A program made the position numbers and the translations under genes. Source: a bacterium (GTDB taxonomy: Bacteria > Patescibacteriota > Minisyncoccia > Phycocordibacterales > GWA1-40-21). From it: 64,000 nucleotides of DNA. Where the stretch lies: positions 1,094-65,093 of the forward strand of contig JBAXQJ010000004.1 in NCBI GenBank assembly GCA_037131755.1, in the 5' to 3' direction. The notes under the pieces were generated by a model. The model saw nothing but the letters and a program-made list of their open reading frames with translations. It was not told where the DNA came from and did no database searches. Of this stretch, positions 1-62,788 are shown piece after piece (within the stretch, counting starts at the first letter, position 1; each line of letters begins with the position of its first letter).

Positions 1-521
1 TATTCAAAAATAGTCTTAGAAACTAAATTCCAAAACTTTTGCGAATGATTAAATTCTTTCAGATGACAAAGCTCATGGACAATTATGTAATTAACTAGTT
101 TATCAGGCAACAGAACAATTTTATAATTAAAATTCAGGTTACCTTTTCTTGAACAGCTACCCCAGCGTGTTTTCTGATTCTTAATATTTATTTTGTTAAA
201 TCTAATCTTATAAATCTTATTGAACTTAGCCACTTTCTTCTCGGCTAACTCCTGAGCTTGCTGTTTATACTTTGTATAATCGGCATCAGAATTTTTAGTA
301 ATAAATGTTTTACTAAATGATCCAAAATAATCGAGCTTATCCAATATCCATTGAGATTTTTTTATTATAAACTGTTCAATTGTGTTCACGGCAATATTGG
401 TCGGAGCAGTAACTACAAAATTACCGTCACAATAAATTGCCAGTCTCATTCTTCGAGCTCGGTTGCTTACCTTTATAGTATATTCAACTTTTCTTTTATG
501 TAGCTCGATGTGTTTTTTCAT
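1..521 (-). CDS. DUF45/YgjP-like zinc metallohydrolase (partial; C-terminus runs off window start)
   Basis: Unlisted minus-strand ORF with ATG at 521-519, 3 nt after the hsdR stop. Own translation: MKKHIELHKRKVEYTIKVSNRARRMRLAIY...TRWGSCSRKGNLNFNYKIVLLPDKLVNYIIVHELCHLKEFNHSQKFW. The HELCH...H (HExxH) motif and TRWGSC segment are typical of DUF45 proteins that often sit beside Type I R-M loci. Confidence 0.6.
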   Translation of the reverse strand, partial: MKKHIELHKRKVEYTIKVSNRARRMRLAIYCDGNFVVTAPTNIAVNTIEQFIIKKSQWILDKLDYFGSFSKTFITKNSDADYTKYKQQAQELAEKKVAKFNKIYKIRFNKINIKNQKTRWGSCSRKGNLNFNYKIVLLPDKLVNYIIVHELCHLKEFNHSQKFWNLVSKTIFE

Positions 522-524
522 AAG

Positions 525-3440
525 CTAGAATTTCTTAATGACAATATCAATTAAACGATTAAGATACTTATTAAAATCTGAAACCTTTATTTGATCTTTA
601 TAATCCTTGAGAATTAGTTCTTGAAGTGTCCGCTTGGCTTCCTTTAAAAACTCTTCACGTTTCGATGAATCCTGCCAGCCGTCATCTAAGATGTCGGCTA
701 ATCGTGCCGCCATTTCTTTAATAAATTCTTTAACAATAGTTTCATCGGAGTCGCTAATAAATTCTTCGGACACGACAAATAACCCATACTCACCGAGCGA
801 ATAACCAAGTCCCTTGGCTTCTTCTGCCTTAGTCTTGATATCATTCATTAATTCATAGTAGCGCTTGATTCGTTCTGCTAAATCTATTTGATGTTTTTCA
901 AATTCTTGTCGAATGGCACTTAGTCTTTCACTGAACTTCTTAAAGGCTGGATGTGTATCGATATTAATCGATATCTCTCGCTTAAGCATCTTCTCAAGAT
1001 TAAGTGCCTTTTCGTCTTCGTTCATCTTGTCCAAGCGTTCAAGTGTATATAAATCATTAACCTTTAATTCTCTAAAATTTTTGGTTATGCCTTCATAGTC
1101 AATTTTTTCCTGAATAAGACTTTTAATTTTGCCGCCATATTCTGCCAAAGAAAAAGCATCGACACCGTCATCATCTTGGAACTCTTTTACAAAGGCTAAA
1201 TAAAAACTAGTAACCCACTCAAAAGTACGAATATACTCCATTAAGAATGGATCAGGCGATAGGATTTCGAATAGCATCTTAAGACGTGCGTATTTGTCCT
1301 TAAAAAATTGCTGCTTATTTTGATTATCAATAAAAATCTTGAGACAACGACGCAAATTATCAATTGATGGGTCTTCAATATTTACACCTGTAAATAATTC
1401 CATCACCTCTTCAATTACTTTAACAAATTCCTTTTTAAGACGTTCAATATCGATCATTGCGCTATCAACCACGCTCTCGTCAAAGTTGAGCGCATCATAA
1501 AGATTTTTGGTAACACCATAATAATCGATAATCTTGCCACACCCTTTATTTGGATAAACTCTATTTGTGCGAGCGATTGCCTGCAGTAGATTATGGTCTC
1601 TTAATGGTTTGTCCAAATACATAACCTGCTCAACTGGAGCATCAAATCCAGTCAATAGCATGTCACAAACTAATAAAAATTTAAGTGGGTGGCTTGCATC
1701 TTTAAACTGCTCTATAACCTTCTCTCGTTTTTGCTTATTAGTATTATATTTTTTTAGATCGTCGCTATCGCTATTAGGATCGCCGGGCGAGTAAACAACT
1801 TCTGACCATTCTGCTGGCACTAACTTATCAAGCATCTCCTTGTATTTTGCAGTTGCTTCACGATCGTAACATACAATCTGTGCTTTAAAACCATTCGGCA
1901 AAACATATAACTTGTAATGCTCAACGATATCCTGAATTACCGCTTCCATGCGTTTTTCAAGTTTAACTAAAGCTTCTTTTTTGCCATATTTTTTCATTAG
2001 CAACTCCCTCTGGCTATCATTGAGATCTGCGGTCATTTCCGCAAACTGCTTATCAAGCTTTTCTTCATCAACAAAAAACTTTGACAGCCTTGCTTCGTAG
2101 GTAACTGGTAATGTTGCGCCATCATCAATAGCTTGTTGAATTGAGTAGTAATCTAAATAACGCTCACCCTCTTCACCAAAGTTGCGGTGGGTATTTAATG
2201 TAAGTTTATCAATAGGGGTACCAGTAAAGCCAAAGAAAAAAGCGTTCTTAAACGCATTGCGCATCTTTATCGCAGAAATACCTTCATTATCACGATGAGC
2301 CTCGTCTGAAAGCACAATCACATTGCCTTCGATAGCTTCTACGTCCTGCAATTCATTAAACTTTTGAATAGTGGAAATAAATATACCCCTGTCAGCTCCC
2401 TTAATCTTTTTCTCTAAATCCTTTCGAGATTCAACTCGAATTAAGTTTTGTCCACCCCATGCTTCAAACTCATCAAAAACTTGTTGGTCTAGATCAATGC
2501 GATCAATTAATATAAATACCTTAGGATTTTTTAGCTGTTCATCAAATCGTAATTTCCAAGCAGCAAAAAACATAGTCAGGGTTTTTCCTGATCCTTGCGT
2601 ATGCCAAATTAAACCCTTCATTAATTCGCCATCCTTAACACGGCTAACAATCTTATTGGTAGCATAAAGTTGCTGATATCGAGCAATCTTCTTTGTATAA
2701 CTATCTTTCTTCTTCTCAAATACAATAAAGTTTTTAATAATATCTAAGACCTGAGTTTTGTCTAACAAATAATGTAGAGTTAAATCTAATTCTTCGTCAT
2801 ACTTCTTATTGCCACCGTGCAAATCTTCACGCCAAGTTAAAAAATATTGTTTTGGAGAATATGTTGCACCATAAACAGTTTTCAGTCCGTCCGTAGAGAT
2901 GTTAAAGCAATTAGGTAAAAATAATTTTGGCGCAACCTTTTCATACCGCTTAATCTGATCAATAGCATTTTCAAAATTAACGCTACTTGAGGCGGTGGGG
3001 CTTTTTGCTTCAATATCGCAAATCGGCAAACCATTGATAAAAATCATTACATCTGGTCGAATGTTTTCTGTCACACCCTCAAAGTAAAACTGATTGGTCA
3101 CAATAAATTGATTATTATCAATATTATCAAAATCAATAATCTTATAATCCTTAAACTGTCCAGAAGCAGGGTCTTTTATGTTTATGCCGTTTCTTAAGAC
3201 GAATAAAAATGACTCATTGGTGTCCAATTTCTTTACTTCACGAACTACGCTTTGAGCGATATCGTCGGTCGAATTATTAATTCTCTTAACTGCCTCTAAA
3301 AGATGTGGTGAAATAATATATTCATTTTCAAATATTCTCAGTTTAGAAAATTCATCAGCGCGAATATATTTATAACCGAGATTATCGGCAATAAATTTAA
3401 TTACATGGTTTTCGATCGTATGTTGTTCGTTAAATTTCAT
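525..3440 (-). CDS. hsdR: Type I restriction enzyme R subunit (HsdR)
   Basis: 971 aa; SF2 helicase motifs (HTQGSGKTLTMF Walker A, VLSDEAHRDNEG DEAH box); N-terminal nuclease-like region; adjacent to HsdM/S gene. Confidence 0.85.
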   Translation of the reverse strand: MKFNEQHTIENHVIKFIADNLGYKYIRADEFSKLRIFENEYIISPHLLEAVKRINNSTDDIAQSVVREVKKLDTNESFLFVLRNGINIKDPASGQFKDYKIIDFDNIDNNQFIVTNQFYFEGVTENIRPDVMIFINGLPICDIEAKSPTASSSVNFENAIDQIKRYEKVAPKLFLPNCFNISTDGLKTVYGATYSPKQYFLTWREDLHGGNKKYDEELDLTLHYLLDKTQVLDIIKNFIVFEKKKDSYTKKIARYQQLYATNKIVSRVKDGELMKGLIWHTQGSGKTLTMFFAAWKLRFDEQLKNPKVFILIDRIDLDQQVFDEFEAWGGQNLIRVESRKDLEKKIKGADRGIFISTIQKFNELQDVEAIEGNVIVLSDEAHRDNEGISAIKMRNAFKNAFFFGFTGTPIDKLTLNTHRNFGEEGERYLDYYSIQQAIDDGATLPVTYEARLSKFFVDEEKLDKQFAEMTADLNDSQRELLMKKYGKKEALVKLEKRMEAVIQDIVEHYKLYVLPNGFKAQIVCYDREATAKYKEMLDKLVPAEWSEVVYSPGDPNSDSDDLKKYNTNKQKREKVIEQFKDASHPLKFLLVCDMLLTGFDAPVEQVMYLDKPLRDHNLLQAIARTNRVYPNKGCGKIIDYYGVTKNLYDALNFDESVVDSAMIDIERLKKEFVKVIEEVMELFTGVNIEDPSIDNLRRCLKIFIDNQNKQQFFKDKYARLKMLFEILSPDPFLMEYIRTFEWVTSFYLAFVKEFQDDDGVDAFSLAEYGGKIKSLIQEKIDYEGITKNFRELKVNDLYTLERLDKMNEDEKALNLEKMLKREISINIDTHPAFKKFSERLSAIRQEFEKHQIDLAERIKRYYELMNDIKTKAEEAKGLGYSLGEYGLFVVSEEFISDSDETIVKEFIKEMAARLADILDDGWQDSSKREEFLKEAKRTLQELILKDYKDQIKVSDFNKYLNRLIDIVIKKF

Positions 3441-3460
3441 ATTTTTAGCAGCCTGAAAGA

Positions 3461-5725
3461 TTAGATCTTTTTGTTAAATAAACTATTTATCAATCCTCTT
3501 TTTCTCTGCATATACTTATCTAGCAATTGTTGTCTTAACTCCGCTTCACGCTTTACAGCTTCAAGTATGCTCGCTATTTCTTTTTGTTCATCTTCAGATG
3601 TGGGCAAATACAAGCTTTTTGACAAAAATTTTGTATTTGAAATATTGATAGTATTTTTTGCACCTTTTGATACTATGGTTTGTAGGTAATTATTTGTATT
3701 AATATTAGATTCAAAATACGCATCCAATATTACTCCTATAAAGTAATTTTTCGGCTCAAAAACTCCATACAAAGGAGAAACGATAGCATCCGTAGTAATT
3801 TTGCTTTGTTTAATTATACCGTAAGGGAAATCTCCTGTTGGACTCTTTGTATATATAATATCTCCAGGTCTAACAAGTTTATATTTTGAAGTGTCTTTTG
3901 CTGAATATGATCTGCCCAAATGCTCTATTTGGTTTACGACTCCCTTTTTTACAGATACAGAATGAACCTCTTCTTTTCCTGTGCTGAACAACTTATGTTC
4001 AGTTAAAACATCGCTAAGAAGAGTGTCCTTCCATTTATCCTTAGTAACTTGGCGCTTAGTTAAATCCAGGATACTAGCTTTGTATTTCTTTAGCTCCTCC
4101 TCAATAGAGTTTATTTCATTTTCTAAAGCTTCCAAGTCAACATCGATCTCTTTTTTAGAGGTGTCAACATAGCGCCTAATATCTAAATTAAAATCATTCT
4201 CAATAATTTTATTAAGAGATACTATTTCTGAATAATTTTTTATTGACTCAAATGACTCAAATGTATTAATAATTTTTTTTATATCTGATACACGCAATCT
4301 ATTTTGTTTTTTATCAATCTCAAAACCTTCCTCTGCACTTATTATCAAAATCTTATTCTTTTTTTCGGGAGATTTATTTTTGTTGAGAATAACAATTACA
4401 GCCGGAATTTTTGTTCCATAAAATAACTTTTGTGGCAATGATATAATTCCTTCTATGAGATCATTATTTAGAATAGCCTCCCTAATTTTTCCCTCAGAAC
4501 CGCCACGAAATAATACTCCATGTGGCAAAACAATTCCTGCACGACCATTTTCATTCATAGACTTAATTATATGCAAGATGAAAGCAAAGTCCGCATTTTT
4601 ATCTGGTGGCATTTCATATCCAGCTAGTCTGCCATATTTATTTGTTTTAAATACTTCCCACTCCCAATCTTTAATCGAATAGGGAGGATTTGCAACTACT
4701 ATATCAAAGCTCTGTAGCCCACCATGTTGGTTTAAAAATTGAGGATTAGCCAAGGTGTCGCCTCGACGAATATCAGCACTATCAAGACCATGAAGGAACA
4801 TATTTATACGAGCAATTGCAAAAGTACTTAAATTTACCTCCTGGCCATAGAGATATAAGGTTTTTGCTATTTTTTCACCAGATTTATTTTTTAGATAATC
4901 ATATGCCTCAAGCAAAAACCCACCCGAACCGACTGTTGGGTCGTATATGTGATCTTTCTGGTGTGGCTTTAATATGCCAATAATAACTTTTTCAACTTCT
5001 CTCGGAGTGTAAAATTCACCACCTTTTTTTCCTGCATCTGCTGCAAATTGTTTTATTAGGTATTCATAAGCATCACCAAGCAAATCTGAGCTGATATAGT
5101 TACTTCCAAAATTATATTGCGAAAAATGATTAATAAGTTTCTGCAGAGTTTCGTTTGGAAAGCGATCCTTGTTAGCAAAATCAAGATCGTCAAAAATTTT
5201 GTCGAGTTTAGGACTATTGGCATTGGTTAGCTTTTCAAAAATCTCATTTAGCTTTTGACCGATACCATCAGCTTGTTCTGTGATTACAGTCCAACGACAA
5301 TCTTTAGGAACTTGGAAACGATGATTGTAGTCAGCACGGGCTATATCTTCATTATTATATTCGTCCATTACTTTCTGATATTCTTCATCCCAAACATCGC
5401 TGATACGTTTATAAAACAACAATCCAAAGATATATTTTTTATAATCCGAGCTGTCAATTTTGCCACGCAAGATGTCAGCACTTTTCCAAAGCATTGCCTC
5501 GAGTTGGGGTAGTGTAAGTTGACTACCCATTTTATCAACGATGGCTTCAATGTCTTGTGGGCGATATTTGCGATCACCACGTTTTCCAGCTCTAAGTGGA
5601 ACCAAAATTCCATCCTTTTCCCAATTACGAAGAGTGTCTTGATGAATTGAGAAAATTTCAGCTACCTGACTAATAGAAAGAAGCTCTGGCATGCCTTTTA
5701 ATTTTTCTTGTATGTCTTTGCGCAT
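3461..5725 (-). CDS. hsdM: Type I R-M methyltransferase fused to a single HsdS target-recognition domain, with N-terminal MerR/Xis-like HTH
   Basis: 754 aa. N-terminal LSISQVAEIFSIHQDTLRNWEKDGILVPLR helix-turn-helix; HsdM N-domain (LWKSADILRG...LLFYKRISD); N6-adenine MTase motif VVANPPYS; C-terminal about 230 aa resemble an HsdS TRD plus conserved helix (LVRPGDIIYT...ISNTKFLSKSLYLPTSEDEQKEIASILEAV). Confidence 0.75.
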   Translation of the reverse strand: MRKDIQEKLKGMPELLSISQVAEIFSIHQDTLRNWEKDGILVPLRAGKRGDRKYRPQDIEAIVDKMGSQLTLPQLEAMLWKSADILRGKIDSSDYKKYIFGLLFYKRISDVWDEEYQKVMDEYNNEDIARADYNHRFQVPKDCRWTVITEQADGIGQKLNEIFEKLTNANSPKLDKIFDDLDFANKDRFPNETLQKLINHFSQYNFGSNYISSDLLGDAYEYLIKQFAADAGKKGGEFYTPREVEKVIIGILKPHQKDHIYDPTVGSGGFLLEAYDYLKNKSGEKIAKTLYLYGQEVNLSTFAIARINMFLHGLDSADIRRGDTLANPQFLNQHGGLQSFDIVVANPPYSIKDWEWEVFKTNKYGRLAGYEMPPDKNADFAFILHIIKSMNENGRAGIVLPHGVLFRGGSEGKIREAILNNDLIEGIISLPQKLFYGTKIPAVIVILNKNKSPEKKNKILIISAEEGFEIDKKQNRLRVSDIKKIINTFESFESIKNYSEIVSLNKIIENDFNLDIRRYVDTSKKEIDVDLEALENEINSIEEELKKYKASILDLTKRQVTKDKWKDTLLSDVLTEHKLFSTGKEEVHSVSVKKGVVNQIEHLGRSYSAKDTSKYKLVRPGDIIYTKSPTGDFPYGIIKQSKITTDAIVSPLYGVFEPKNYFIGVILDAYFESNINTNNYLQTIVSKGAKNTINISNTKFLSKSLYLPTSEDEQKEIASILEAVKREAELRQQLLDKYMQRKRGLINSLFNKKI

Positions 5726-5785
5726 ATTTTATGGATTAATAATCTTAATCCTAGTATACATCAAATATTTTGTAAAGTCAATCGT

Positions 5786-5805
5786 TCATAGGTTATCATA
5801 GGTTA
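5786..5805. promoter_or_regulatory. tandem direct repeat tcataggtta x2 in divergent hsdM / recombinase promoter region
   Basis: Perfect 10-bp tandem duplication in the 181-bp intergenic region between divergent genes. Confidence 0.3.
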
Positions 5806-5906
5806 AGATAATTTATCACTATATTTATTATAGTAATATTAGGCATTTTTAAGGGACTTGGGACGCTCTGGACTCTTCTGTAGATATGCGTCATCAATGT
5901 TAGTAT

Positions 5907-7226
5907 ATGAATACAATACAAATGCCCGTAGGGGTGACGAGCAAAATAATCACCCCAGTTAAGGCAAAATACTGCCTTTATGCCCGAAAATCGACCGAAA
6001 GCGAGGAAAGGCAGGTCTTATCAATAGATAGCCAAATTAAGGAGATGCTTGAGCTGGCTGAACGAGAGCAACTGGACATCGTAGAACTCAAAAGAGAGTC
6101 TCACAGCGCTAAAGAGGCTGGACAGCGACCAGTTTTTAATGAAATTATAGCCGAGATAAAGGAGGGTAAATTTAATGCCATTTTGACATGGGCTCCTGAC
6201 CGTATATCAAGAAATGCAGGCGACCTAGGCAAAATTGTGGATTTAATGGATTCTGGTGCCCTGCTTGAGATAAGGACATATGGTCAGAAATTTAGCAATA
6301 ACCCGAACGAGAAGTTTCTGCTCATGATTCTCGGATCACAAGCCAAACTTGAAAACGACAACAGAGGCATTAATGTCAGACGAGGACTAAGGACTAGGGC
6401 TGAGATGGGTTTGTGGGTAGGTCTAGCACCGCTAGGCTATCTGAACCAAAGACGGATGGACAAGAAGTGCCAAGTGGTAGTTGATCCGCTACGTGCGCCA
6501 GCCATCAAGCAGATGTTTGAGAAAATGGCTTACGAAAAGTTTAGTGGGCGAAAATTATTCAACTGGCTCAAACATGATCTAAACTTTTACACCCGAGGCA
6601 ACAAGCCGCTAACGTTGGCTGGTGTTTATAGAATAATAAATAATCCATTCTACTACGGCGTATTTGAGCGACCAGTCGGTAGTGGCAACTGGTATCAAGG
6701 AAAACATAAGCCTCTAATTAGTAAGGACTTATACGACAAAGCACAAGCTCAATTAAAACGAGATCAAATTGTTAGAGAAAATAAAGAGTTTGCATTCACT
6801 AAACTATTCACTTGCGGTTATTGTGGCTCGGGCATATCGGCAGAGGAAAAATACAAACCGCTCAAGGACGGAACACATGCAAGATACATCTACTACTCCT
6901 GTTCGAGGGCACGAGATCGCAATTGCAAGAATAAATACATAAGAGAAGAAGAATTGATTACTGAACTGCTAAAAATATTAGACAAGGTAAATATTAACGA
7001 GCTAGGAATGCGGCAAAAACTGGAAGATGAAATTGCCAGATTCAATATCTTCCAACGATCAGTGCTTGGCGCAACTGATAAAATCAAAACCAACAAAGAA
7101 ATGGATATTAGAAACTATGCTAAATATCTACTCAAAGAGGGAGCGACATCGGATAAGCGAGAGTTGCTCGGAAATTTAAGGTCGAAGATAATGTACAAGG
7201 ATAAAGTATTAACTTTGATTGAATAG
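5907..7226 (+). CDS. large serine recombinase (resolvase/integrase family)
   Basis: 439 aa; N-terminal resolvase catalytic domain (CLYARKSTESEERQVLSIDSQ, catalytic Ser); recombinase domain; Cys-rich zinc ribbon (CGYCGSG...YYSCSRARDRNC). Confidence 0.8.
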   Translation: MNTIQMPVGVTSKIITPVKAKYCLYARKSTESEERQVLSIDSQIKEMLELAEREQLDIVELKRESHSAKEAGQRPVFNEIIAEIKEGKFNAILTWAPDRISRNAGDLGKIVDLMDSGALLEIRTYGQKFSNNPNEKFLLMILGSQAKLENDNRGINVRRGLRTRAEMGLWVGLAPLGYLNQRRMDKKCQVVVDPLRAPAIKQMFEKMAYEKFSGRKLFNWLKHDLNFYTRGNKPLTLAGVYRIINNPFYYGVFERPVGSGNWYQGKHKPLISKDLYDKAQAQLKRDQIVRENKEFAFTKLFTCGYCGSGISAEEKYKPLKDGTHARYIYYSCSRARDRNCKNKYIREEELITELLKILDKVNINELGMRQKLEDEIARFNIFQRSVLGATDKIKTNKEMDIRNYAKYLLKEGATSDKRELLGNLRSKIMYKDKVLTLIE

Positions 7227-11981: not shown

Positions 11982-14222
11982 ATGTTACTCCAAGATCCGA
12001 TAGATAAAAATTTCCGTTTGCAGGGCGATCAAAAGGCGGCCTTAAAGAAAATCGGCATCAAGACGATCGAGGATTTGCTCTACCATTTCCCGACTCGCTA
12101 CGGCGATACGGCGGAAATAAAAAATATCAGCACTTTAGTAGCTGGAGAAACGGCAGTGATTTATGGACGGATTACCAATCTCAAAACTGGCAAGGCTTTT
12201 ATCAAGAAGACGTCGATTTCCGACGCCTACATCGAGGACGAAAGCGGGAAAATAAAAGTGATCTGGTTCCATCAGCCCTACATTGCCAAGATAATTCACG
12301 AAGGCGCTTTTGTCCGAGTGGAAGGCAAGGTCTCCGAAAAGAAATCCTCTATACCAAGGCTAAACCTTGGTATAGACCAAGGTTTAGCCTTGGTCGGTGG
12401 GGAGAAAAAGATTTTGTCTTTTATCAACCCCAAAATCGAAACGGTGGCCAAAATACCGATCGGCGTCGGCGAGTCACTCTTTGGGGAAGATGGCGAAGAA
12501 CATTCGCTTTATCCGGTTTACCCCGAGAGCAAAGGCATCACTTCCAATTGGCTGTATCATGGCATACAGAAAATCCTCAAGGATGGAATTCTCGACCAAA
12601 TCACCGATCCGATACCCGATTTTATTCTCAAAACTTACAATCTCCCCTCGCTCGCCACGGCCCTGGTCTGGATCCATGCGCCCAAAAAACAAACCGACGC
12701 TCTGGCGGCCCGCAAGCGCTTTGCTTTTGAAGAAGTTTTTTACATCCAGCTCCAGAAAAAGAAAGATAAAAAAACTTGGGAAATCGATCCGGCGTTTAAA
12801 ATAGAGAAGGATCAAAAAGATATCGATTCCTTTACCAAACGCTTCCCATTTGAAGCCACTGGCGCACAAAAGAAAGCGATCGACCAAATTCTCTCGGATA
12901 TGAGGCGCGGTTTTGCGATGGGTCGGTTACTTGAAGGCGATGTCGGCTCTGGCAAGACGGCTGTCGCTGCGGCCGCTGTTTTTGCCACGACCACTTCCCG
13001 TCCATTTGGCCAAAATTTTGGCGCCCTGCAAACCGCCTATATGTGCCCGACCGAAATCCTGGCCAAACAGCAGTTCGAATCTTTCATAAAATATTTTACT
13101 TATCTCGGTATCAATATCGGACTCATTACTTCAAGCGGTTGCCGAAAATTCCCATCCAAAGTCAATCCAAATGGCTGGACCGATATCTCGCGCACCCAGC
13201 TTTTGAAATGGGTAGCCAATGGCGAGATCCCGATTCTGGTCGGAACGCACTCCTTGATCCAGAAAACGATTAAATTCAAGCACTTGGCTTTCGTGATCAT
13301 CGATGAACAGCATCGGTTCGGGACTAATCAAAGGCAAAAATTATTCAAGAAGAACGAGCCGGATGGCAAACCCAACCCTCACCTGCTTTCGATGACGGCG
13401 ACTCCGATTCCCCGCACTCTGGCGCTCACCGTCTATGGCGATTTGGATCTGTCCGTCCTCGACGAAATGCCGGCCGGCCGCAAACCGATCATCACGGAAA
13501 TTGTCTTACCCAAAGAGGAAACGCGCCAAGAGACTTATGAAAAAATCCGCGCCGAATTAAGATCCGGTCGACAAGTCTATATCATCTGTCCGCGCATCGA
13601 CGAACCGGATCCCAACAAAGAAATGGCCGTGCTGGCAAAATCAGTGACGGAAGAAGCCAAGCGTCTCAAAGAAAAGATCTTTCCGGAATACGAGATCGGC
13701 GTTCTCCACGGTAAGATGAAAGACGATGAAAAAGAAGAGGTGATGGCCGAATTTTCGGCTGGTAAAATTCACATCCTTTGTGCCACCTCGGTCGTGGAAG
13801 TCGGCGTGAATGTGCCGAACGCGACTGTCATCGTGATCGAGGGTGCCGAACGTTTCGGCCTGGCCCAGCTCCATCAGCTTCGCGGCCGGGTTATTCGTGG
13901 CAACCATCAGGCTTACTGCTACATTTTTGCCGATACCAAAACCGACAAGACGATACAGCGCTTGCGGGCATTTAAGAATTCCGCAAACGGTTTCGAGTTG
14001 GCGGAGTTCGATCTCAAACTCCGCGGTCCGGGCGAGCTCGGCGGCAACAAACAATGGGGCATTTCGGATATCGGCATGGAGGCGCTCAAAAATATCAAAA
14101 TGGTCGAAGCCGCCCGCGCGGAAGCTGGATATCTTTTGGAAAATGATTTTGAGTTGCAAAAATACCCCCTGCTAAAAGAAAAATTAAAATGCAGAAAGAC
14201 TGAAGAAATTCATTTTGAATAG
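11982..14222 (+). CDS. recG: ATP-dependent DNA helicase RecG
   Basis: 746 aa; wedge/OB N-domain; helicase motifs (GDVGSGKT, IIDEQHRFG DEQH box); C-terminal helicase lobe. Confidence 0.85.
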   Translation: MLLQDPIDKNFRLQGDQKAALKKIGIKTIEDLLYHFPTRYGDTAEIKNISTLVAGETAVIYGRITNLKTGKAFIKKTSISDAYIEDESGKIKVIWFHQPYIAKIIHEGAFVRVEGKVSEKKSSIPRLNLGIDQGLALVGGEKKILSFINPKIETVAKIPIGVGESLFGEDGEEHSLYPVYPESKGITSNWLYHGIQKILKDGILDQITDPIPDFILKTYNLPSLATALVWIHAPKKQTDALAARKRFAFEEVFYIQLQKKKDKKTWEIDPAFKIEKDQKDIDSFTKRFPFEATGAQKKAIDQILSDMRRGFAMGRLLEGDVGSGKTAVAAAAVFATTTSRPFGQNFGALQTAYMCPTEILAKQQFESFIKYFTYLGINIGLITSSGCRKFPSKVNPNGWTDISRTQLLKWVANGEIPILVGTHSLIQKTIKFKHLAFVIIDEQHRFGTNQRQKLFKKNEPDGKPNPHLLSMTATPIPRTLALTVYGDLDLSVLDEMPAGRKPIITEIVLPKEETRQETYEKIRAELRSGRQVYIICPRIDEPDPNKEMAVLAKSVTEEAKRLKEKIFPEYEIGVLHGKMKDDEKEEVMAEFSAGKIHILCATSVVEVGVNVPNATVIVIEGAERFGLAQLHQLRGRVIRGNHQAYCYIFADTKTDKTIQRLRAFKNSANGFELAEFDLKLRGPGELGGNKQWGISDIGMEALKNIKMVEAARAEAGYLLENDFELQKYPLLKEKLKCRKTEEIHFE
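12350..12395. repeat. palindromic repeat element (two inverted units) lying in-frame inside recG
   Basis: tataccaaggctaaaccttggtata + gaccaaggtttagccttggtc; the 27-mer ctataccaaggctaaaccttggtatag is identical to the copy at 53347-53373; translated as IPRLNLGIDQGLALVG within RecG. Confidence 0.7.
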
Positions 14223-14288: not shown

Positions 14289-14361
14289 GCGCGTGTAGCT
14301 CAGTTGGTAGAGCGGTCGTCTTATACACGACTGGTCCCAGGTTCGAATCCTGGCACGCGCA
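14289..14361 (+). tRNA. tRNA-Ile (anticodon UAU)
   Basis: Manual cloverleaf of GCGCGTGTAGCTCAGTTGGTAGAGCGGTCGTCTTATACACGACTGGTCCCAGGTTCGAATCCTGGCACGCGCA: perfect 7-bp acceptor, 5-bp anticodon stem GTCGT/ACGAC, loop CTTATAC (U33, anticodon TAT, A37), discriminator A, no encoded CCA. Confidence 0.75.
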
Positions 14362-14476
14362 CAAACTAAAGCCGGGTTTTCATCAGATGAAAACCCGGCT
14401 GAGTATTTTATATGATTGGTCGCCAAGGTCTCACCTTTCCCGTCGCCGACTCCTCCCCAAGGAGAGACCTTGTCGC

Positions 14477-16525: not shown

Positions 16526-16972
16526 ATGAGTGCGACACTTATCCAAAACAAAAAAGCTTTCTTCAACTACGAAATCACGGAAAAATTTACCGCCGGCGTG
16601 GAGCTTTTTGGTTATGAAGTAAAGACCTTGCGTTCCAAGCAAGGCTCGCTTGATGGCGCTTATATTATCGTCCGGGGTGGCGAAGCGTATCTCGTCGGTT
16701 CAAACATACCCGCCTACCAACCCAAAAACGCGCCCAAAGAATACGACTCCAAGAGAAACCGCCGACTCCTTTTGTCCAAGAAAGAGATTTCTTACCTCTC
16801 AAACGCCGGCGACGCCCAGGGATTGACAATAGTGCCTATAGAGTTATATAATAGTGGGAAGTTTATCAAGCTGTCTTTCGGCATCGGCAAAGGAAAAAAG
16901 AAGTTTGATAAGCGCGAAGATATCAAAAAGCGCGAATCAAATCGCGACATTGAAAGAACTTTGAAATATTAG
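16526..16972 (+). CDS. smpB: SsrA-binding protein SmpB
   Basis: 148 aa; KKAFFNYEITEKFTAGVELFGYEVKTLRSKQGSLDGAYI matches SmpB. Confidence 0.9.
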   Translation: MSATLIQNKKAFFNYEITEKFTAGVELFGYEVKTLRSKQGSLDGAYIIVRGGEAYLVGSNIPAYQPKNAPKEYDSKRNRRLLLSKKEISYLSNAGDAQGLTIVPIELYNSGKFIKLSFGIGKGKKKFDKREDIKKRESNRDIERTLKY

Positions 16973-16980
16973 CTGGTATT

Positions 16981-17050
16981 TTGTAGACAGTAGATTGTAG
17001 ACAGAAAGAAATTTCTTCACACAGTATACGCTCTACCACATACTATCTAC
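16981..17050 (+). promoter_or_regulatory. GTAGATTGTAG-family promoter-proximal motif upstream of tmRNA
   Basis: ttgtagacagtagattgtagacag ... ctatctacaa inverted arrangement, with TTCACA / TACTAT -35/-10-like hexamers immediately upstream of the tmRNA 5' end. Confidence 0.35.
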
Positions 17051-17055
17051 AAAAT

Positions 17056-17473
17056 GGGGATGCATGTTTTGACAAAAAACCAAACCCTTTCGTGCAAAGC
17101 AGAGCTCCAACAACTCTTTAAAAGGTTGGAAATTGTAATTGCAAACACATTAGTTGCAAAGGCAAAGTCTCTTGTTTCTCCATATTTTGGAGTACAGGAT
17201 CTTGCTTTCGCCTACGTTGCTTAATCTTTTTAGATTAGCCTAGGCGGCGTCTCTCTCGCCTATTTCGCGGAGACGGGACGAGGCGTAATATACGCGAATA
17301 TATTTTGCAGTAGTCTCGACTGCAAACCGAGAACAAGAGAATCGGCTTATGATCATTTTTCTGATTTTGAAATCATAAGCTAAAATCCGTCACAAGACGG
17401 GACTAAATCAGATACGCTTTGTAGACTCGTCTGTGTTAATTTTTTGGACGCGGTTTCAATACCGCCATCTCCA
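17056..17473 (+). ncRNA. ssrA: putative tmRNA (SsrA)
   Basis: Begins GGGGATGCATGTTTTGAC (tmRNA-like 5' end) downstream of smpB. The 3' end CATCTCC-A can pair with 5' GGGGATG (one G-U) to form a tRNA-like acceptor, preceded by a T-arm-like GCGGTTTCAATACCGC. An internal ORF ends ...DLAFAYVA-TAA at 17222-17224. Not covariance-model verified. Confidence 0.5.
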
Positions 17474-17712
17474 CACTTTCAAAAATCCGCTCATTCTGAT
17501 GGGCGATTTTTGTTGTGTGGATATGAGCAAGCAAACTGCTTTGCTTGCGGGCGGTATTGAAAAGATTGGCGCTGTTTTGTCGGCAAAACCGCCAATCACG
17601 CGCCGTGGGCGGCAATTACCGCCATGTTTCTCAAACCCATTGACGAAACAACTGGAATGTGATAATTTTTTGACTGGAGTTTAAACCAAAAAAGTTAGAG
17701 AGGAATTGATAA

Positions 17713-29633: not shown

Positions 29634-29647
29634 CCCCCCCCCCCCCC
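29634..29647. repeat. homopolymeric C14 (G14 on minus strand) tract
   Basis: 14 consecutive C, 22 nt upstream of the RT start codon and between an ATG (29628) and the Avd-like reading frame. Confidence 0.9.
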
Positions 29648-30028: not shown

Positions 30029-30150
30029 GCGGGACCGAGAAGGCAAACCCATTGTCACTGTTCCACCTGTTGTCAGGGTTACCGTTGTAGGCATTGAGCC
30101 TGTAGTCGTTGTACCGGTTCGTACCGAGCACGTTCGGGTTGCCGTCAGAA
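30029..30150 (-). repeat. DGR template repeat (TR)
   Basis: 122 bp, 109/122 identical to 30648-30769; all 13 mismatches are A (minus strand) in this copy. Confidence 0.85.
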
Positions 30151-30631: not shown

Positions 30632-31300
30632 CTAGGCCTGAGCACCAACTTGCGGGACCGAGAAGGCAAACCCACCGCCACCGCTCCACCTGCGGTCAGG
30701 GTTACCGTGGCAGGCAAAGAGCCTGTAGTCGTTGTACCGGTTCGTACCGAGCACGACCGGGTTGCCGTCAGAATCAGGAATAGGTTCGTGCATGGTGATA
30801 ATCCAGTCCAAACCCATTTCCTTGATTTCCTCATCCGAGAACATGTCCCGGATCAAGCAGGCTACTTCGGCATGCGGATCAGTCATCTTCCGTTTCTTGG
30901 CGTTACCACGAATATTCTTCGTGATTCGGTCATTGTCGGAGAACAACTTTCCAGGGATAACACCAATCTGGTGAACCGTCCCTGCCTTGGTCGGCTTAAA
31001 GTTCTTGTGTCGGAGCACGCTTTGGGCGTAACTGCCAACAGGTAAACCTTTGCCATTCAAGTGAACGATCCACTCTTCGCCGGTTTTCCCGTTCGAGACG
31101 ACCGTGAAATAAATCACGCCGTCCGCGTCTCGGGTCCACTTCATACCATCATTGAACCGCCCCTCGATTGCCCGCTGGAGAAAAGCATCAAGTTTTTCCG
31201 GATCAAATCCGTATTCCTTCTGAAGGAAAACCTGACGACCGATTTCCGCCAACTTACCGCCCAGTCTCGCCTGCAGATCGCCATTAAGTTTTGTACTCAT
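30632..31300 (-). CDS. DGR target (variable) protein, probable C-type-lectin-like fold with C-terminal VR
   Basis: 222 aa; the VR encodes the C-terminal NPD.R...GFAFSV segment, which resembles CLec-type VRs; no signal peptide. Confidence 0.7.
   Translation of the reverse strand: MSTKLNGDLQARLGGKLAEIGRQVFLQKEYGFDPEKLDAFLQRAIEGRFNDGMKWTRDADGVIYFTVVSNGKTGEEWIVHLNGKGLPVGSYAQSVLRHKNFKPTKAGTVHQIGVIPGKLFSDNDRITKNIRGNAKKRKMTDPHAEVACLIRDMFSDEEIKEMGLDWIITMHEPIPDSDGNPVVLGTNRYNDYRLFACHGNPDRRWSGGGGFAFSVPQVGAQA
30648..30769 (-). repeat. DGR variable repeat (VR) at 3' end of target gene
   Basis: Counterpart of the TR. The 13 differences all fall at TR adenines, mostly within AAC codons: TR peptide LGTNRYNDYRLNAYNGNPDNRWNSDNGFAFSVP versus VR LGTNRYNDYRLFACHGNPDRRWSGGGGFAFSVP. 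Confidence 0.85.
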
Positions 31301-31550
31301 GACAATCTCCTTTCTGTTTTACCCGCCATTATGACAGGTTTGGTTATGTTTGCTGGACTCTTCGCCACAGCTTTTAAGTGATTTTCTAAAAACCAACTAA
31401 AAGCTGTGGCGAATTTGCCTATCTCCTCGTCTTTTTAAGGTTCGGTTTATCTGTAACAAGTATAGCACCTATTACAATATTTGTCAATACTTACCAAGTT
31501 CCGTCAAGACCCACAAAGGACCGACCTTTGTATGTCCTTATTTAAGGCCA

Positions 31551-31575
31551 CATACCAAGGTTTAGCCTTGGTATG
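31551..31575. repeat. palindromic repeat element copy (loop in opposite orientation)
   Basis: cataccaaggtttagccttggtatg, 36 nt downstream of map. Confidence 0.65.
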
Positions 31576-31586
31576 ACTTTAGTGGG

Positions 31587-32410: not shown

Positions 32411-32603
32411 AAGAGCGAGCCTTTGCCGCTTGGAAAATTCTCTAAGGCAAAGCGAGTTATTGCTTTTTGCGGGTTAGCGGAGCCAGCTTAGAAAATTAAA
32501 GAATTTTTTAGAAAAATCAAACTGTTTGAGGAATATTCTGATATGACGAGTTTTTGATTTTTCGTTAAGAAAAATGACTTAATTTTCAAGCTGGCGCAGC
32601 GCT
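32411..32603. repeat. MITE/ERIC-like intergenic repeat, copy 1
   Basis: About 135-bp core (gcgggttagcggagccagcttagaaaattaaag ... gatatgacgagtttttgatttttcg ... ttaattttcaagctggcgcagcgc) is more than 85% identical to 44892-45025; internal terminal inverted repeats ccagcttagaaaattaa / ttaattttcaagctgg. Confidence 0.7.
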
Positions 32604-36564: not shown

Positions 36565-36597
36565 ATAAAATTAAATATTAAATATAAAAACCAAGGA

Positions 36598-37013: not shown

Positions 37014-37049
37014 CCAATCTACTTTCTACTAACTACAATCTACTTTTTA
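37014..37049 (-). promoter_or_regulatory. GTAGATTGTAG-family motif between rpsS and rplV
   Basis: Minus-strand reading gtagattgtagttagtagaaagtagattgg; homologous to 62751-62788, 16981-17005 and 45541-45600. Confidence 0.35.
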
Positions 37050-37381
37050 GTTTCGACAGTGGCTTTAGCAGACTGAGCGGCTGAGATTTCAGCTTCTTTC
37101 TTCTTGATATCCAATTCTTTCTGCATCTTACCACCATGGCGATGGAATTTCCTGGTTGGAGAAAATTCGCCCAATCGATGGCCAACCATATCTTCGGTCA
37201 CCAAAACTTCGATGTGCTCTCGGCCATTGTAAACGCCAAAATTGAATCCCACCATTTCTGGAGCGATTTGGCAGCGTCGGACCCAAGTCTTAATAACACC
37301 GGTTTCAATCGGCTTTTTCCCTTCTATCTTTTTTAGAAGTCTTTCGTCAACGTATGGTCCTTTTTTAATTGATCTTGCCAC
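37040..37381 (-). CDS. rpsS: 30S ribosomal protein S19
   Basis: [19 protein letters not shown]... matches S19 with a C-terminal extension. Confidence 0.9.
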
Positions 37382-37654
37382 GGTATTAAAATTAAAGATT
37401 AAAAATCAAAACGTAAAATATTGAGTCCGCCCAAGCGAACAAATATCCTGAATTCCTCTCATCTGTAGACAGACAAAACGATCCAGAATCCATCTTCGTA
37501 ACTCTTAGCGTTAAAAAAACAGAGCTCTTTCAAGCTCCGAGTATATTAGCAGAGGACGATTCAGAAGTCAAGCAAAATAAAAGCGGTATTTATCTCGGAG
37601 CGAGGTACCTGCCCATAAGGAGCTCGACCACATCTCGTCCTACGTTGCCGATAA

Positions 37655-37684
37655 CAAAAACAACCCCCGAAGGGGTTGTTTTTG
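37655..37684. terminator. strong bidirectional intrinsic terminator hairpin inside the rplB-rpsS spacer
   Basis: caaaaacaacccc-cgaa-ggggttgtttttg, 13-bp stem with U-runs readable on both strands. Confidence 0.55.
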
Positions 37685-37791
37685 CTTAAAAATAAAAGCG
37701 GTATGAACCCTTATATTGCCTTCCTCGGCTCGGAAATGGAAAAGATTACTTTTTCATTTCGCTCGCTCTACGTCGGCAATAAGTTTTGAAA

Positions 37792-39019: not shown

Positions 39020-39146
39020 TAATGTATTTCTGGTAATTAGGGCGAGTTATTGTCTTTTTAGAGACTAGCGAGCGCGACGGCGCAAGCTCGAGGAAAAATT
39101 TAGCAAAATTTTATCCGTGCTCTAAAAAGATAATAACGAGCGACTT

Positions 39147-45525: not shown

Positions 45526-45540
45526 TGTTTTGTATATAGT

Positions 45541-45600
45541 AGTTCGTAGATTGTAGAGAGTATTTCTATATACTATCTACAATATACTGTCTACAAATTA
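45541..45600 (-). promoter_or_regulatory. GTAGATTGTAG-family motif between rpsL and rpsG
   Basis: Minus-strand reading ttgtagacagtatattgtagatagtata...ctctacaatctacgaact. Confidence 0.35.
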
Positions 45601-53346: not shown

Positions 53347-53373
53347 CTATACCAAGGCTAAACCTTGGTATAG
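53347..53373. repeat. palindromic repeat element copy
   Basis: ctataccaaggctaaaccttggtatag, identical to 12348-12374. Confidence 0.7.
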
Positions 53374-62600: not shown

Positions 62601-62700
62601 ATGGAAATATCAAAAAAAATTAAATATCAAAATGTAAAGATGAAAAACAAAATTACTAACAATATTATATCGCAGAAAGACACTAGCGCCAAGTACAGAA

Positions 62701-62737
62701 AGCCGGCGGTTTGTTCTGAACAAACCGCCGGCTTTAT
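62701..62737. other. 17-bp perfect stem hairpin downstream of the FN3 gene (possible terminator)
   Basis: aaagccggcggtttgtt-ctg-aacaaaccgccggcttt. Confidence 0.4.
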
Positions 62738-62750: not shown

Positions 62751-62788
62751 CTGTCTACTTTATCTACTAACTACTGCCACAATCTACG
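62751..62788 (-). promoter_or_regulatory. GTAGATTGTAG-family motif upstream of pilB
   Basis: Minus-strand reading cgtagattgtggcagtagttagtagataaagtagacag; the TAACTAC...AATCTAC architecture is shared with 37014-37049. Confidence 0.35.

What the first reader, a model, noticed from the sequence alone, without database searches (positions are those of the whole stretch)
16981..17050. Recurring GTAGATTGTAG / TCTAC-repeat motif upstream of tmRNA, rplV, rpsG and pilB
Four spacers (16981-17005, 37014-37049, 45541-45600, 62751-62788) contain the same arrangement of TCTAC/GTAGA pentamers, for example gtagattgtagacag and gtagattgtagttagtag…gtagattgg. All are in the same orientation relative to local transcription and lie 20-150 nt upstream of a gene start. 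This looks like a shared transcription-factor binding site, a promoter-proximal UP-like element or an RNase processing signal specific to this lineage.
Basis: seen in the sequence. Interest (0 to 1): 0.5.

Follow-up and report, generated by a model that had tools for sequence, protein, structure and literature searches.

The report
Heptamer repeat arrays behind stop codons
The recurring GTAGA/TCTAC motif is real, but it is not a promoter or transcription-factor site: it is a species-specific version of the poorly understood 7-base tandem repeats that fill the gaps between genes in this group of tiny bacteria, here placed directly behind stop codons.

Summary
Observation confirmed. GTAGA/TCTAC pentamers form exactly four clusters in the window, against 0.075 expected, all at the coordinates given and all intergenic.

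The sites are period-7 tandem arrays, (GTAGAnn)3-4, on the sense strand. Each starts at or within 10 nt of the stop codon of the upstream gene (smpB, rpsS, rpsL, a 987-aa ORF). Two lie inside ribosomal-protein operons. One is followed by a terminator-like hairpin and then a promoter-like match before pilB.

At smpB-ssrA and rpsL-rpsG a second, inverted copy of a 22-mer makes a hairpin. The nearest sampled relatives have 9-24 nt spacers there, so the arrays are recent gains.

Across 80 related Paceibacteria loci, period-7 arrays are 17 times commoner than in shuffles. Their sequence differs between lineages. They are polar: G-rich and stop-rich after stops, G-poor and start-codon-poor before starts. 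One array is conserved well beyond its flanking coding DNA.

The closest known kind is the TAACTGA and cyanobacterial heptamer repeats, whose function is unresolved. Most likely these are slippage-born arrays that act, or are filtered, at the mRNA level. The mechanism is inferred, not shown.

The parts
16980..17001 (+). Site 1, stop-proximal arm. The 22-mer TTTGTAGACAGTAGATTGTAGA holds three GTAGAnn units. It begins 8 nt after the smpB stop TAG (16970-16972), and the first GTAGA is 10 nt after the stop.
   Evidence: TRF period 7, 3.0 copies; exact match to the 22-mer pattern; UAG in all three frames within 33 nt of the stop.
17032..17053 (-). Site 1, inverted arm. On the minus strand it reads TTTGTAGATAGTATGTGGTAGA; on the sense strand it reads TCTAC...TCTACAAA. 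It ends 2 nt before the mature 5' end of tmRNA (17056).
   Evidence: exact match on the minus strand; the spacer folds at -18.2 kcal/mol (z -3.3) on the sense strand and -24.3 (z -3.7) on the antisense strand.
17016..17044 (+). Promoter-like match TTCACA-17-CATACT in the loop and right arm of site 1. It ends 11 nt before tmRNA and is a candidate ssrA promoter. This is a consensus match only.
   Evidence: 9 of 12 matches; 0.5 such matches expected per shuffle of the region.
37018..37043 (-). Site 2, a direct array on the sense strand: GTAGATTGTAGTTAGTAGAAAGTAGA. The TAG of the first unit (37042-37040) is the rpsS stop codon. The array ends 27 nt before the rplV ATG (36990).
   Evidence: (TRF period 7, 5.3 copies, 37018-37054). 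One search shows no hairpin (z 0.04).
45576..45597 (-). Site 3, stop-proximal arm: TTTGTAGACAGTATATTGTAGA. It starts directly after the rpsL stop TAA (45600-45598).
   Evidence: (exact match).
45529..45557 (+). Site 3, inverted arm. It reads GTAGA on the plus strand, which is TCTACAATCTACGAACTACTATATACAAA on the sense (minus) strand. It ends 3 nt before the rpsG ATG (45525).
   Evidence: 1 mismatch; the sense RNA hairpin has -19.4 kcal/mol, z -4.7, and leaves 13 nt unpaired before the AUG.
62754..62787 (-). Site 4, a direct array on the sense strand: GTAGATTGTGGCAGTAGTTAGTAGATAAAGTAGA. It starts 3 nt after the stop TAA (62793-62791) of a 987-aa ORF with no Pfam family.
   Evidence: (full ORF length from L112).
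62699..62735 (.). A 17-bp GC-rich hairpin of bidirectional-terminator type, lying between the site 4 array and the pilB promoter-like site (62692-62664). It places the array in the 3' trailer of the upstream ORF.

Best explanation
What it is. The four sites are copies of one species-specific heptanucleotide tandem-repeat element, (GTAGAnn)3-4. It belongs to a class of period-7 intergenic arrays that is general in Paceibacteria (Patescibacteria). That class resembles the TAACTGA and cyanobacterial 'heptamer repeats' described in other phyla.

What is shown:
- Each array lies on the sense strand, at or just behind the stop codon of the upstream gene.
- Each is C-poor and puts UAG into all three reading frames within about 30 nt.
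- In two spacers an inverted copy lies next to the downstream gene, and the two copies can pair into an AU-rich hairpin. The hairpin loops out the extra ~55 nt and leaves ~13 nt of free leader.
- The nearest sampled relatives lack the arrays.

What is inferred:
- The arrays arise by slipped-strand duplication of 7-nt units and by copying between spacers.
- They are transcribed as intercistronic or 3'-trailer RNA.
- They are shaped, and probably used, at the level of the mRNA as a cistron-boundary module. Such a module would stop stray ribosomes in any frame, and would offer either an unstructured tract or a fold-away hairpin between stop and next start. It may also bind an unidentified single-strand-binding factor with a 7-nt register.

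They are not promoter elements or double-stranded DNA operators.
For: Clustering: 4 clusters against 0.075 expected.

Period: TRF finds period 7 at sites 1-3.

Anchoring to the upstream stop. All four sites have stops in three frames within 33 nt of the stop codon. The background is 7 of 67 window genes and 129 of 1370 genes in all loci.

Extended similarity: the 22-mer occurs four times, which implies copying rather than convergence on a pentamer.

Context: the sites are intra-operon or precede a terminator-like hairpin. No Rfam family matches any of the four spacers.

Recent gain: relatives have rpsS-rplV spacers of 9 and 18 nt and rpsL-rpsG spacers of 11-24 nt.

Class-level evidence:
- Period-7 arrays in noncoding DNA of 80 related loci plus the window number 59, against 3.4 in dinucleotide shuffles. 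Periods 5, 6 and 8 give 14, 13 and 16.
- The arrays abut stop or start codons in the str and S10 operons.
- They are polar. Stop-proximal arrays have G>C on the sense strand 11:1, and start-proximal arrays have C>G 14:5 (p=6e-4).
- TAG-sense against CTA-sense is 9:1 next to stops and 3:10 next to starts (p=0.003).
- Start-like NTG codons are depleted on the sense strand before starts (8 against 22).
- One array (GATTTAR, rplW-rplB) is 93-100% identical in three lineages whose flanking coding DNA is only 64-74% identical.
- Hairpins built from inverted heptads recur in the rpsL-rpsG spacer of other lineages with unrelated sequences.

Independent GTAGAYA arrays in unrelated metagenome contigs also sit 3-22 nt after stop codons in the sense orientation (L098, L099, L101/L107, L103, L106).

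Precedent: PMC4679880 and bioRxiv 10.1101/2022.06.06.494920.
Against: - No expression data exist. Transcription through the arrays and any effect on translation or RNA stability are inferred.
- The hairpins are no better on the sense strand than on the antisense strand. Site 1 gives -18.2 against -24.3 kcal/mol, so there is no G-U signature of selection on the sense RNA.
- Three-frame stops are not a general property of the class: 12 arrays on the sense strand against 17 on the antisense strand over all co-directional arrays.
- The polarity could come from seeding by the C-free stop codon plus purifying selection against upstream start codons. That needs no positive function.
- Only 4 sites were found in 82 kb of this genome.
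- The strains available are 99.7-100% identical, so constraint on the GTAGA arrays themselves could not be measured.
- No candidate binding protein was identified.
Confidence: 0.55

Rival explanations
1. Neutral or selfish simple-sequence DNA. The arrays are slippage products, with heptanucleotide units the favoured slippage unit. They are tolerated in spacers and have no function. Their polarity reflects seeding from the C-free stop codon and removal of arrays that would create upstream start codons.
For: - The nearest relatives lack the arrays, and their orthologous spacers are 9-24 nt.
- The same genome carries other inserted spacer repeats.
- The site 3 hairpin folds the insert away and restores roughly 16 nt of single-stranded spacing, similar to the ancestral spacer.
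- Heptanucleotide units are reported as the commonest long simple repeats in prokaryotes, with a polymerase-slippage explanation (Mrazek 2007, as summarised in PMC4679880).
- There is no strand asymmetry in hairpin stability.
Against: - The GATTTAR array is 93-100% conserved across lineages whose flanking third codon positions are only 39-46% identical.
- The same 22-mer or long array recurs at separate loci in one genome, which local slippage alone does not explain.
- The copies are imperfect, and copy number does not vary among strain contigs: eight for site 1 and three for site 2, counting the window.
- The start-proximal arrays' C>G bias is not explained by seeding, because start codons also lack C.
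Confidence: 0.27
2. Double-stranded DNA operator or promoter element. This is the first reader's view: a lineage-specific transcription factor or nucleoid protein binds the GTAGA repeats and controls the downstream gene.
For: - The motif is shared by four spacers in one orientation.
- Sites 1 and 3 are inverted repeats, as many operators are.
- Promoter-like hexamers overlap sites 1-3.
- In Nostoc, deleting heptamer repeats altered the responses of the recO promoter to NtcA and LexA (bioRxiv 10.1101/2022.06.06.494920).
Against: - Two sites are inside r-protein operons.
- Site 4 is separated from pilB by a hairpin and a better promoter-like match.
- The 7-bp register is off the helical phase.
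- The arm centres are 52 bp apart at site 1 and 47 bp apart at site 3, so the spacing is inconsistent.
- The position is fixed relative to the upstream stop, not to the downstream gene.
- The orthologous spacers of relatives lack it.
- The strand polarity in composition relative to gene ends is hard to explain for a duplex site.
Confidence: 0.07
3. Miniature mobile palindromic element of MITE, REP or PATE type. The ~70-nt elements at sites 1 and 3, with 22-nt terminal inverted repeats and a GTAG head, would be mobilised in trans. Sites 2 and 4 would be half-elements.
For: - Inverted 22-mers are nearly identical between loci.
- They are insertions relative to relatives.
- GTAG is the conserved head of REP elements. 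This is recalled from the literature, not tested here.
- The genome carries other dispersed small repeats in spacers.
Against: - No target-site duplication is visible at either element.
- The stems are AU-rich and made of heptads, not a GC-rich REP palindrome.
- Only 4 sites were found in 82 kb.
- No Y1 (RAYT or IS200-type) transposase turned up. Precomputed Pfam hits cover the roughly 50 kb of loci L081, L088, L112, L115 and L116, and my Pfam scans cover 20 window ORFs. The window ORFs between 46 and 53 kb were not scanned.
- The direct-only arrays and the clade-wide period-7 phenomenon are not explained by transposition.
Confidence: 0.08

Closest known systems
TAACTGA heptamer direct repeats of marine Beggiatoaceae, some Cyanobacteria and Bacteroidetes (MacGregor 2015, PMC4679880)
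   Same: - 7-nt units in 2-6 head-to-tail copies.
- Intergenic, with one unit sequence recurring at many loci in a genome.
- Found inside ribosomal-protein operons (fusA, L3, S4, S1), so a translational rather than transcriptional role was proposed there.
- Shine-Dalgarno sequences are rare next to them.
- The function is unknown.
- One relative here (L035) even carries TAACTGA-containing arrays.
   Different: - The unit is different (GTAGAnn) and the phylum is different (Patescibacteria).
- The copies here are imperfect.
- The arrays start at or behind the upstream stop codon rather than a few nt before the start codon.
- Two of the four sites are inverted pairs, whereas BOGUAY had 169 direct sets and one indirect.
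- Copy number is low (4 in 82 kb).
Cyanobacterial contiguous heptamer repeats: the STRR-type repeats recalled from the literature, and Nostoc PCC7120 TTTTGAA/TTCAAAA repeats (bioRxiv 10.1101/2022.06.06.494920)
   Same: - Tandem heptamers near start codons or promoters.
- Several unit families per genome.
- An unidentified binding partner is suspected.
- There is some experimental hint of a regulatory effect.
   Different: - The Nostoc data concern promoter regions of monocistronic genes.
- No polarity with respect to stop codons has been described there.
- The unit sequences are unrelated.
HutP and TRAP type RNA-binding attenuation sites: (UAG-N4)3 for HutP, (G/U)AG repeats for TRAP. From general knowledge.
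   Same: GUAGAnn repeats give UAG every 7 nt, the same register as the HutP site. Site 4, and metagenome locus L106, have the array directly upstream of a terminator-like hairpin.
   Different: - The position is behind a stop codon rather than in a 5' leader.
- There is no second UAG triplet set at the spacing HutP needs.
- HutP is a Bacillus-type protein, and no homologue could be looked for in this genome.
- This is a lead about how it might work, not a membership claim.
REP/BIME elements and MITEs
   Same: Short palindromic intergenic repeats just 3' of genes. A GTAG motif is present. They are insertions relative to related genomes.
   Different: - The stems are AU-rich and built from heptad units.
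- There is no target-site duplication.
- Copy number is very low.
- No associated transposase was seen.

Membership tests
Intergenic heptanucleotide tandem repeats (TAACTGA/STRR-type long simple sequence repeats) | Unit of 7 nt in head-to-tail copies, at least 2-3 contiguous units | tested here: met
   TRF finds period 7 with 3.0-5.3 copies at sites 1, 2 and 3. Site 4 has the same units with a 1-nt and a 7-nt indel.
Intergenic heptanucleotide tandem repeats (TAACTGA/STRR-type long simple sequence repeats) | Intergenic location, with the same unit recurring at several loci of one genome | tested here: met
   All four clusters are intergenic and there are none elsewhere in 64 kb. No further copy was found in 18 kb of extra sequence from the same genome.
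Intergenic heptanucleotide tandem repeats (TAACTGA/STRR-type long simple sequence repeats) | Arrays end within a few nt upstream of a start codon (TAACTGA type) | tested here: inconclusive
   The GTAGA-sense arrays abut the upstream stop codon instead. Only the inverted arms at sites 1 and 3 abut the downstream gene. In relatives many arrays do end 0-14 nt before a start codon.
Hypermutable contingency simple-sequence repeats (phase variation) | Perfect units with copy number varying between strains | tested here: not met
   The units are imperfect (71-75% matches in TRF). Site 1 is identical in the window and 7 strain contigs, and site 2 in the window and 2 strain contigs. The strains are only 0-0.3% diverged.
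Sigma-70 promoter, UP element or transcription-factor operator | Lies in a promoter-bearing spacer at a fixed distance upstream of the regulated gene or transcription start | tested here: not met
   Two sites are intra-operon (rpsS-rplV and rpsL-rpsG). Site 4 is upstream of a hairpin and of the better promoter-like match. The distance to the downstream gene ranges from 2 to 150 nt.
Sigma-70 promoter, UP element or transcription-factor operator | Conserved in orthologous regulatory regions of related genomes | tested here: not met
   Only one chance-level GTAGA cluster (3 copies, L079, mostly inside the rpsL coding sequence) occurs near rpsL-rpsG in the 80 related loci. The closest L22 relatives have rpsS-rplV spacers of 9 and 18 nt.
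REP/BIME (RAYT-associated) elements | GC-rich imperfect palindrome of 20-40 nt with a GTAG head, many copies, and a RAYT gene in the genome | tested here: not met
   The palindromes are AU-rich heptad arrays. Only 4 sites were found in 82 kb. No Y1 transposase appears among the precomputed Pfam hits for loci L081, L088, L112, L115 and L116 or among the 20 window ORFs I scanned. The window ORFs between 46 and 53 kb and the rest of the genome were not examined.
MITE | Terminal inverted repeats plus a target-site duplication, in multiple copies | tested here: inconclusive
   Sites 1 and 3 have 22-nt inverted arms. No target-site duplication is visible in the flanks. There are only two such elements.
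HutP-type RNA-binding site | Three UAG separated by 4 nt, a second such set about 20 nt away, and a hutP gene in the genome | not testable with these tools
   The UAG-N4 register is present, but no second set exists at sites 2 and 4. The proteome of this genome is not available to search.
Curated RNA families (r-protein leaders and others) | Match to an Rfam covariance model | tested here: not met
   No match at any of the four spacers, even at E<=1.
DNA uptake sequences | Very high genome-wide density, about 1 per kb, of one 9-12-mer | tested here: not met
   4 sites in 82 kb.

The most novel reading that the evidence does not exclude
Paceibacteria, and perhaps other bacteria, may use a polar 'heptad code' at cistron boundaries. 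Lineage-specific 7-nt repeats in the mRNA would be read by a single-strand-binding partner with a 7-nt register. In this species the after-stop unit is GUAGAnn, with its complement before starts.

The partner could be a ring or filament RNA-binding protein working like HutP, S1 or a cold-shock protein. It could instead be the lineage-specific 3' tail of 16S rRNA. Either would hold or release terminating ribosomes and so couple translation of neighbouring genes.

This would explain why the unit is shared within a genome, differs between genomes, is strand-polar, and can be conserved far beyond neutral expectation.
Probability: 0.15. Interest if true: 0.75.

Novelty: new variant of a known kind. 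Interest (0 to 1): 0.42.

Why it matters
Intergenic heptamer repeats have been noticed in cyanobacteria, Beggiatoaceae and Bacteroidetes for decades without a function being assigned. This window shows three things:

- The same kind of element is common in the highly reduced Patescibacteria, even inside the ribosomal-protein operons.
- The arrays are polar with respect to stop and start codons.
- At least one array is under strong purifying selection.

Together these give a concrete, testable handle for a post-transcriptional role. The handle is strand polarity, three-frame stops after genes, and G-poor, start-codon-poor arrays before genes. For annotation, it warns against reading such repeats as promoters or operators.

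Tried and rejected
1. Conservation of GTAGA arrays at orthologous spacers. No GTAGA array occupies the rpsL-rpsG spacer in any of the 80 S7 loci from GTDB species representatives. The one nearby cluster, in L079, has 3 copies and lies mostly within coding sequence.

2. Constraint within the species. All strain contigs are 99.7-100% identical to the window and their arrays are invariant, so this was uninformative.

3. Closer sister species through L22 homologues. The next cluster is already at 80% identity with an 18-nt spacer, and its DNA was not retrievable. The 76% relative has a 9-nt spacer.

4. 'Three-frame stop cassette' as the unifying principle of all heptad arrays. Rejected at class level, with 12 arrays on the sense strand against 17 on the antisense strand. 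It does hold for stop-proximal arrays (9 of 14 against 4 of 14) and for all four GTAGA sites.

5. Absence of Shine-Dalgarno sequences as a mark of array-preceded genes. Not significant, because SD-like motifs are rare everywhere with my crude start calls (1 of 31 against 144 of 1340, p=0.24).

6. Sense-strand G-U evidence for an RNA hairpin. None was found.

7. Metagenome scan with the 22-mer. It found no further copies from this species, only independent GTAGAYA arrays in unrelated contigs.

8. Complementarity to the 16S rRNA 3' tail. It could not be tested, because no rRNA is present in any fetched locus. The single pattern hit was coding sequence.

9. Rfam at a permissive threshold. Nothing matched at the sites.

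10. Extending the genome by 18 kb. No further arrays were found.

Full report

Yes. The four spacers contain the sequences quoted. GTAGA or TCTAC occurs 66 times in the 64-kb window. Clusters of at least three within 70 nt number exactly four: 16983-17046, 37018-37039, 45546-45590 and 62754-62783. Two hundred second-order Markov simulations gave a mean of 0.075 clusters and never more than 2. Among pentamers that cannot overlap their own reverse complement, GTAGA clusters most strongly in the window.

All four clusters are intergenic. Pfam confirms the gene names: SmpB, S19, L22, S12, S7 and PilB. The tmRNA occupies 17056-17476. S7 relatives place the organism in Patescibacteria, in the Paceibacteria/Parcubacteria group near Taylorbacteria.

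**2. Anatomy**

On the sense strand of the local genes, every site begins with period-7 units:
- Site 1: GTAGAca GTAGAtt GTAGA
- Site 2: GTAGAtt GTAGtta GTAGAaa GTAGA
- Site 3: GTAGAca GTATAtt GTAGA
- Site 4: GTAGAtt GTGGCa GTAGtta GTAGAtaaa GTAGA

TRF calls period 7 at sites 1-3.

The fixed reference point is the upstream stop codon. The array starts 10 nt after the smpB TAG, and 3 nt after the TAA of rpsL and of the ORF upstream of pilB. At site 2 the rpsS stop TAG (37042-37040) lies inside the first unit. The distance to the downstream gene varies from 2 to 150 nt.

Sites 1 and 3 are each an inverted pair of one 22-mer, TTTGTAGAYAGTANNTNGTAGA. The four arms are at 16980-17001 (+), 17032-17053 (-), 45529-45550 (+, one mismatch) and 45576-45597 (-). 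None is expected by chance. They fold into hairpins with z-scores of -3.3 to -4.7, but no better on the sense than on the antisense strand.

Sites 2 and 4 have no inverted partner and no structure. They align with each other almost base for base, apart from one extra 7-nt unit. Similarity of this length means the copies are related by descent or copying. They did not merely converge on a pentamer.

**3. Why it is not a promoter or operator**

- Sites 2 and 3 are inside the S10 and str ribosomal-protein operons.
- At site 4 the order on the sense strand is: stop of a 987-aa ORF, the array, a 17-bp GC-rich hairpin (62699-62735), the best promoter-like match (TTGGCG-17-TATAAT, 62692-62664), then pilB. 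The array therefore belongs to the 3' trailer of the upstream gene.
- A 7-bp register is out of phase with the DNA helix. The arm centres are 52 bp apart at site 1 and 47 bp apart at site 3.
- Weak promoter-like hexamers overlap sites 1-3. One of them, TTCACA-17-CATACT, ends 11 nt before tmRNA and may be the ssrA promoter. These are consensus matches only.
- No Rfam family matches any of the spacers, even at E<=1.

**4. Comparison with relatives**

Contigs carrying an identical SmpB, or an L22 at 99% identity, are 99.7-100% identical to the window and have identical arrays. There is no copy-number variation, but also too little divergence to measure constraint.

The next L22 relatives are already at 80% and 76% identity. 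Their rpsS-rplV spacers are 18 and 9 nt. The closest S7 relatives have rpsL-rpsG spacers of 11-24 nt.

The GTAGA arrays are therefore gains in this lineage. Other long spacer insertions in the same operons are also missing from the compact operon of L090. Eighteen further kb of the same genome hold no more GTAGA arrays, so the family is low in copy number.

**5. The wider phenomenon**

Relatives do not have GTAGA in these spacers, but many have their own period-7 arrays there:
- CCTACaa / GTAGG in L068
- TAGAAnn with an inverted CCTAAAT array in L008
- TAGATTT in L016
- TCTAAtt in L050
- ATTTTCA in L012
- AGCTA-type units in several lineages and in this window
- TAACTGA-containing arrays in L035

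In about 135 kb of noncoding DNA from 80 loci plus the window, tandem arrays of at least 2.8 copies number 59 for period 7. Dinucleotide shuffles give 3.4. Periods 5, 6 and 8 give 14, 13 and 16. The arrays abut stop or start codons of co-directional genes: rpsL-rpsG above all, then rpsG-fusA, tuf-rpsJ, rplW-rplB and rplC-rplD.

The arrays are strand-polar.
- Next to a stop codon the sense strand has G>C in 11 arrays and C>G in 1. Next to a start codon it has C>G in 14 and G>C in 5 (Fisher p=6e-4). Ordinary 25-nt flanks show no such skew.
- TAG-rich against CTA-rich sense strands split 9:1 next to stops and 3:10 next to starts (p=0.003).
- Stop codons are enriched on the sense strand after stops (50 against 29).
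- Start-like NTG codons are depleted on the sense strand before starts (8 against 22).

The six GTAGA/TCTAC arms in the window obey this rule.

Three further observations point the same way.
- The array GATTTAR x4 fills the rplW-rplB spacer. It is 93-100% identical in three lineages whose flanking coding DNA is 64-74% identical, with third codon positions 39-46% identical. At least some arrays are therefore under purifying selection.
- Hairpins built from inverted heptads of unrelated sequence recur in the rpsL-rpsG spacer of L008, L042 and L004. They leave 13-21 nt free before the AUG, as at site 3.
- A metagenome scan with the 22-mer found 20 contigs. None is from this species, and nearly all carry GTAGAYA tandem arrays next to genes untypical of Patescibacteria (a CarAB fusion, LigB, HemN, AbgT, MscL). 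Where the context is clear, GTAGA-sense arrays again lie 3-22 nt after a stop codon, in one case directly before a terminator. TCTAC-sense arrays lie just before a start codon.

**6. Most likely explanation**

Shown:
- These are period-7 tandem arrays, anchored to the upstream stop on the sense strand.
- They are C-poor and give UAG in all three frames within 33 nt. All four sites do this, against 7 of 67 window genes and 129 of 1370 genes overall.
- They are sometimes paired with an inverted copy.
- They are recent gains, and they belong to a clade-wide polar class.

Inferred:
- They arise by slipped-strand duplication of 7-nt units and by copying between spacers.
- They are transcribed with the upstream gene.
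- They are shaped, and probably used, at the mRNA level as cistron-boundary modules. That could be through the stop codons and the structure-free or fold-away spacer they provide. It could also be through an unidentified single-strand-binding partner with a 7-nt register.

I put 0.55 on this package as a whole. I am much more confident (about 0.85) in 'heptamer-array element, not a promoter or TF site' than in any particular function.

The main rival, at about 0.27, is that they are functionless slippage or selfish DNA filtered by selection against harmful versions. A duplex-DNA operator or promoter (about 0.07) and a MITE/REP-like mobile palindrome (about 0.08) are less likely, for the reasons listed in those entries.

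**7. Relation to what is known**

The closest described systems are two. One is the TAACTGA heptamer direct repeats of marine Beggiatoaceae, some cyanobacteria and Bacteroidetes (PMC4679880). These are likewise found inside r-protein operons, next to genes without Shine-Dalgarno sequences, and of unknown function, with S1, Csp or CsrA proposed as binders. The other is the contiguous heptamer repeats of Nostoc (bioRxiv 10.1101/2022.06.06.494920).

Heptanucleotide units were already noted as the commonest long simple repeats in prokaryotes (Mrazek 2007, as cited; also PMC4692102).

The present case differs in five ways: the unit sequence, the phylum, the imperfect copies, the position at or behind stop codons, and the frequent inverted pairing. 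I did not find a description of such arrays in Patescibacteria in the library searched. That is not proof that none exists.

**8. Verdict**

It is a new variant of a known but unexplained kind of element. Interest is moderate. The site itself is a low-copy, lineage-specific repeat. The clade-wide polarity and the conserved array make the old question of what bacterial heptamer repeats do more tractable.

Noticed in passing
window 40885-40916; 36566-36589; 37385-37411; 59314-59339: Other short tandem arrays lie in spacers of the same operons. They are TTAGCTTA x4 (period 8), ending 1 nt before the rpsJ start; TAAATAT x3.6, filling rplV-rpsC; AAAATTA x3.4, just upstream of rpsS; and GTAGCTT x3.6, between a pilin gene and pilC. 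AGCTA-type arrays recur at tuf-rpsJ and rpsG-fusA in several relatives.
   Followed up: partly
window 32451-32602, 44874-45025, 59362-59424, 59458-59520: A dispersed repeat family of about 150 nt (86% identity between the two long copies) is inserted in the spacers adk-map, rpsG-fusA and pilin-pilC. Further long spacers with hairpin-like ends lie at 37382-37791 and 39020-39146. The related locus L090 has a compact operon without them. This may be a MITE-like family.
   Followed up: partly
window 12343-12375, 31544-31576, 53341-53373: A small palindromic repeat, ATACCAAGGCTAAACCTTGGTAT, is present three times at 70-94% identity.
   Followed up: no
window 30029-30150 and 30652-30773: A 122-nt direct repeat (89% identity) lies 623 nt apart in a region of long noncoding spacers between map and the DUF8128/T4SS-like gene. 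Relative L090 has these two genes adjacent.
   Followed up: no
window 29634-29647: A homopolymer of 14 C in an intergenic spacer. It could be a slippage-prone tract or an assembly artefact.
   Followed up: no
window 14289-14362: A tRNA-Ile with anticodon TAT (UAU), rather than the usual CAT plus lysidine route.
   Followed up: no
window 3-7226 and L115 8192-14781: A defence and mobility island. It holds a type I restriction HsdR-like helicase (525-3440), an N6-methyltransferase/Eco57I-like protein (3461-5725) and a large serine recombinase (5907-7226). Just beyond the window's left edge lie HamA plus a helicase (Hachiman-like) and a ParB_N-methyltransferase.
   Followed up: no
L019 14061-14087 and 17866-17888; L050 8825-8851; L061 17321-17347: The array GATTTAR x4 fills the rplW-rplB spacer. 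It contains both the L23 stop and the L2 start codon. It is 93-100% identical in three lineages whose flanking coding DNA is 64-74% identical. L019 has the same unit before rplV.
   Followed up: yes
L035 991-1053, 12215-12265, 15850-15911: A Taylorbacteria relative carries inverted arrays containing TAACTGA, the exact heptamer described in Beggiatoaceae, Cyanobacteria and Bacteroidetes. One of them is in the rplW-rplB spacer.
   Followed up: partly
L110 1002-1023: In a metagenome contig, a GTAGAta array directly abuts what looks like the 3' half of a tRNA (…ggttcgattcccac…). This may be an interrupted or intron-containing tRNA gene.
   Followed up: no
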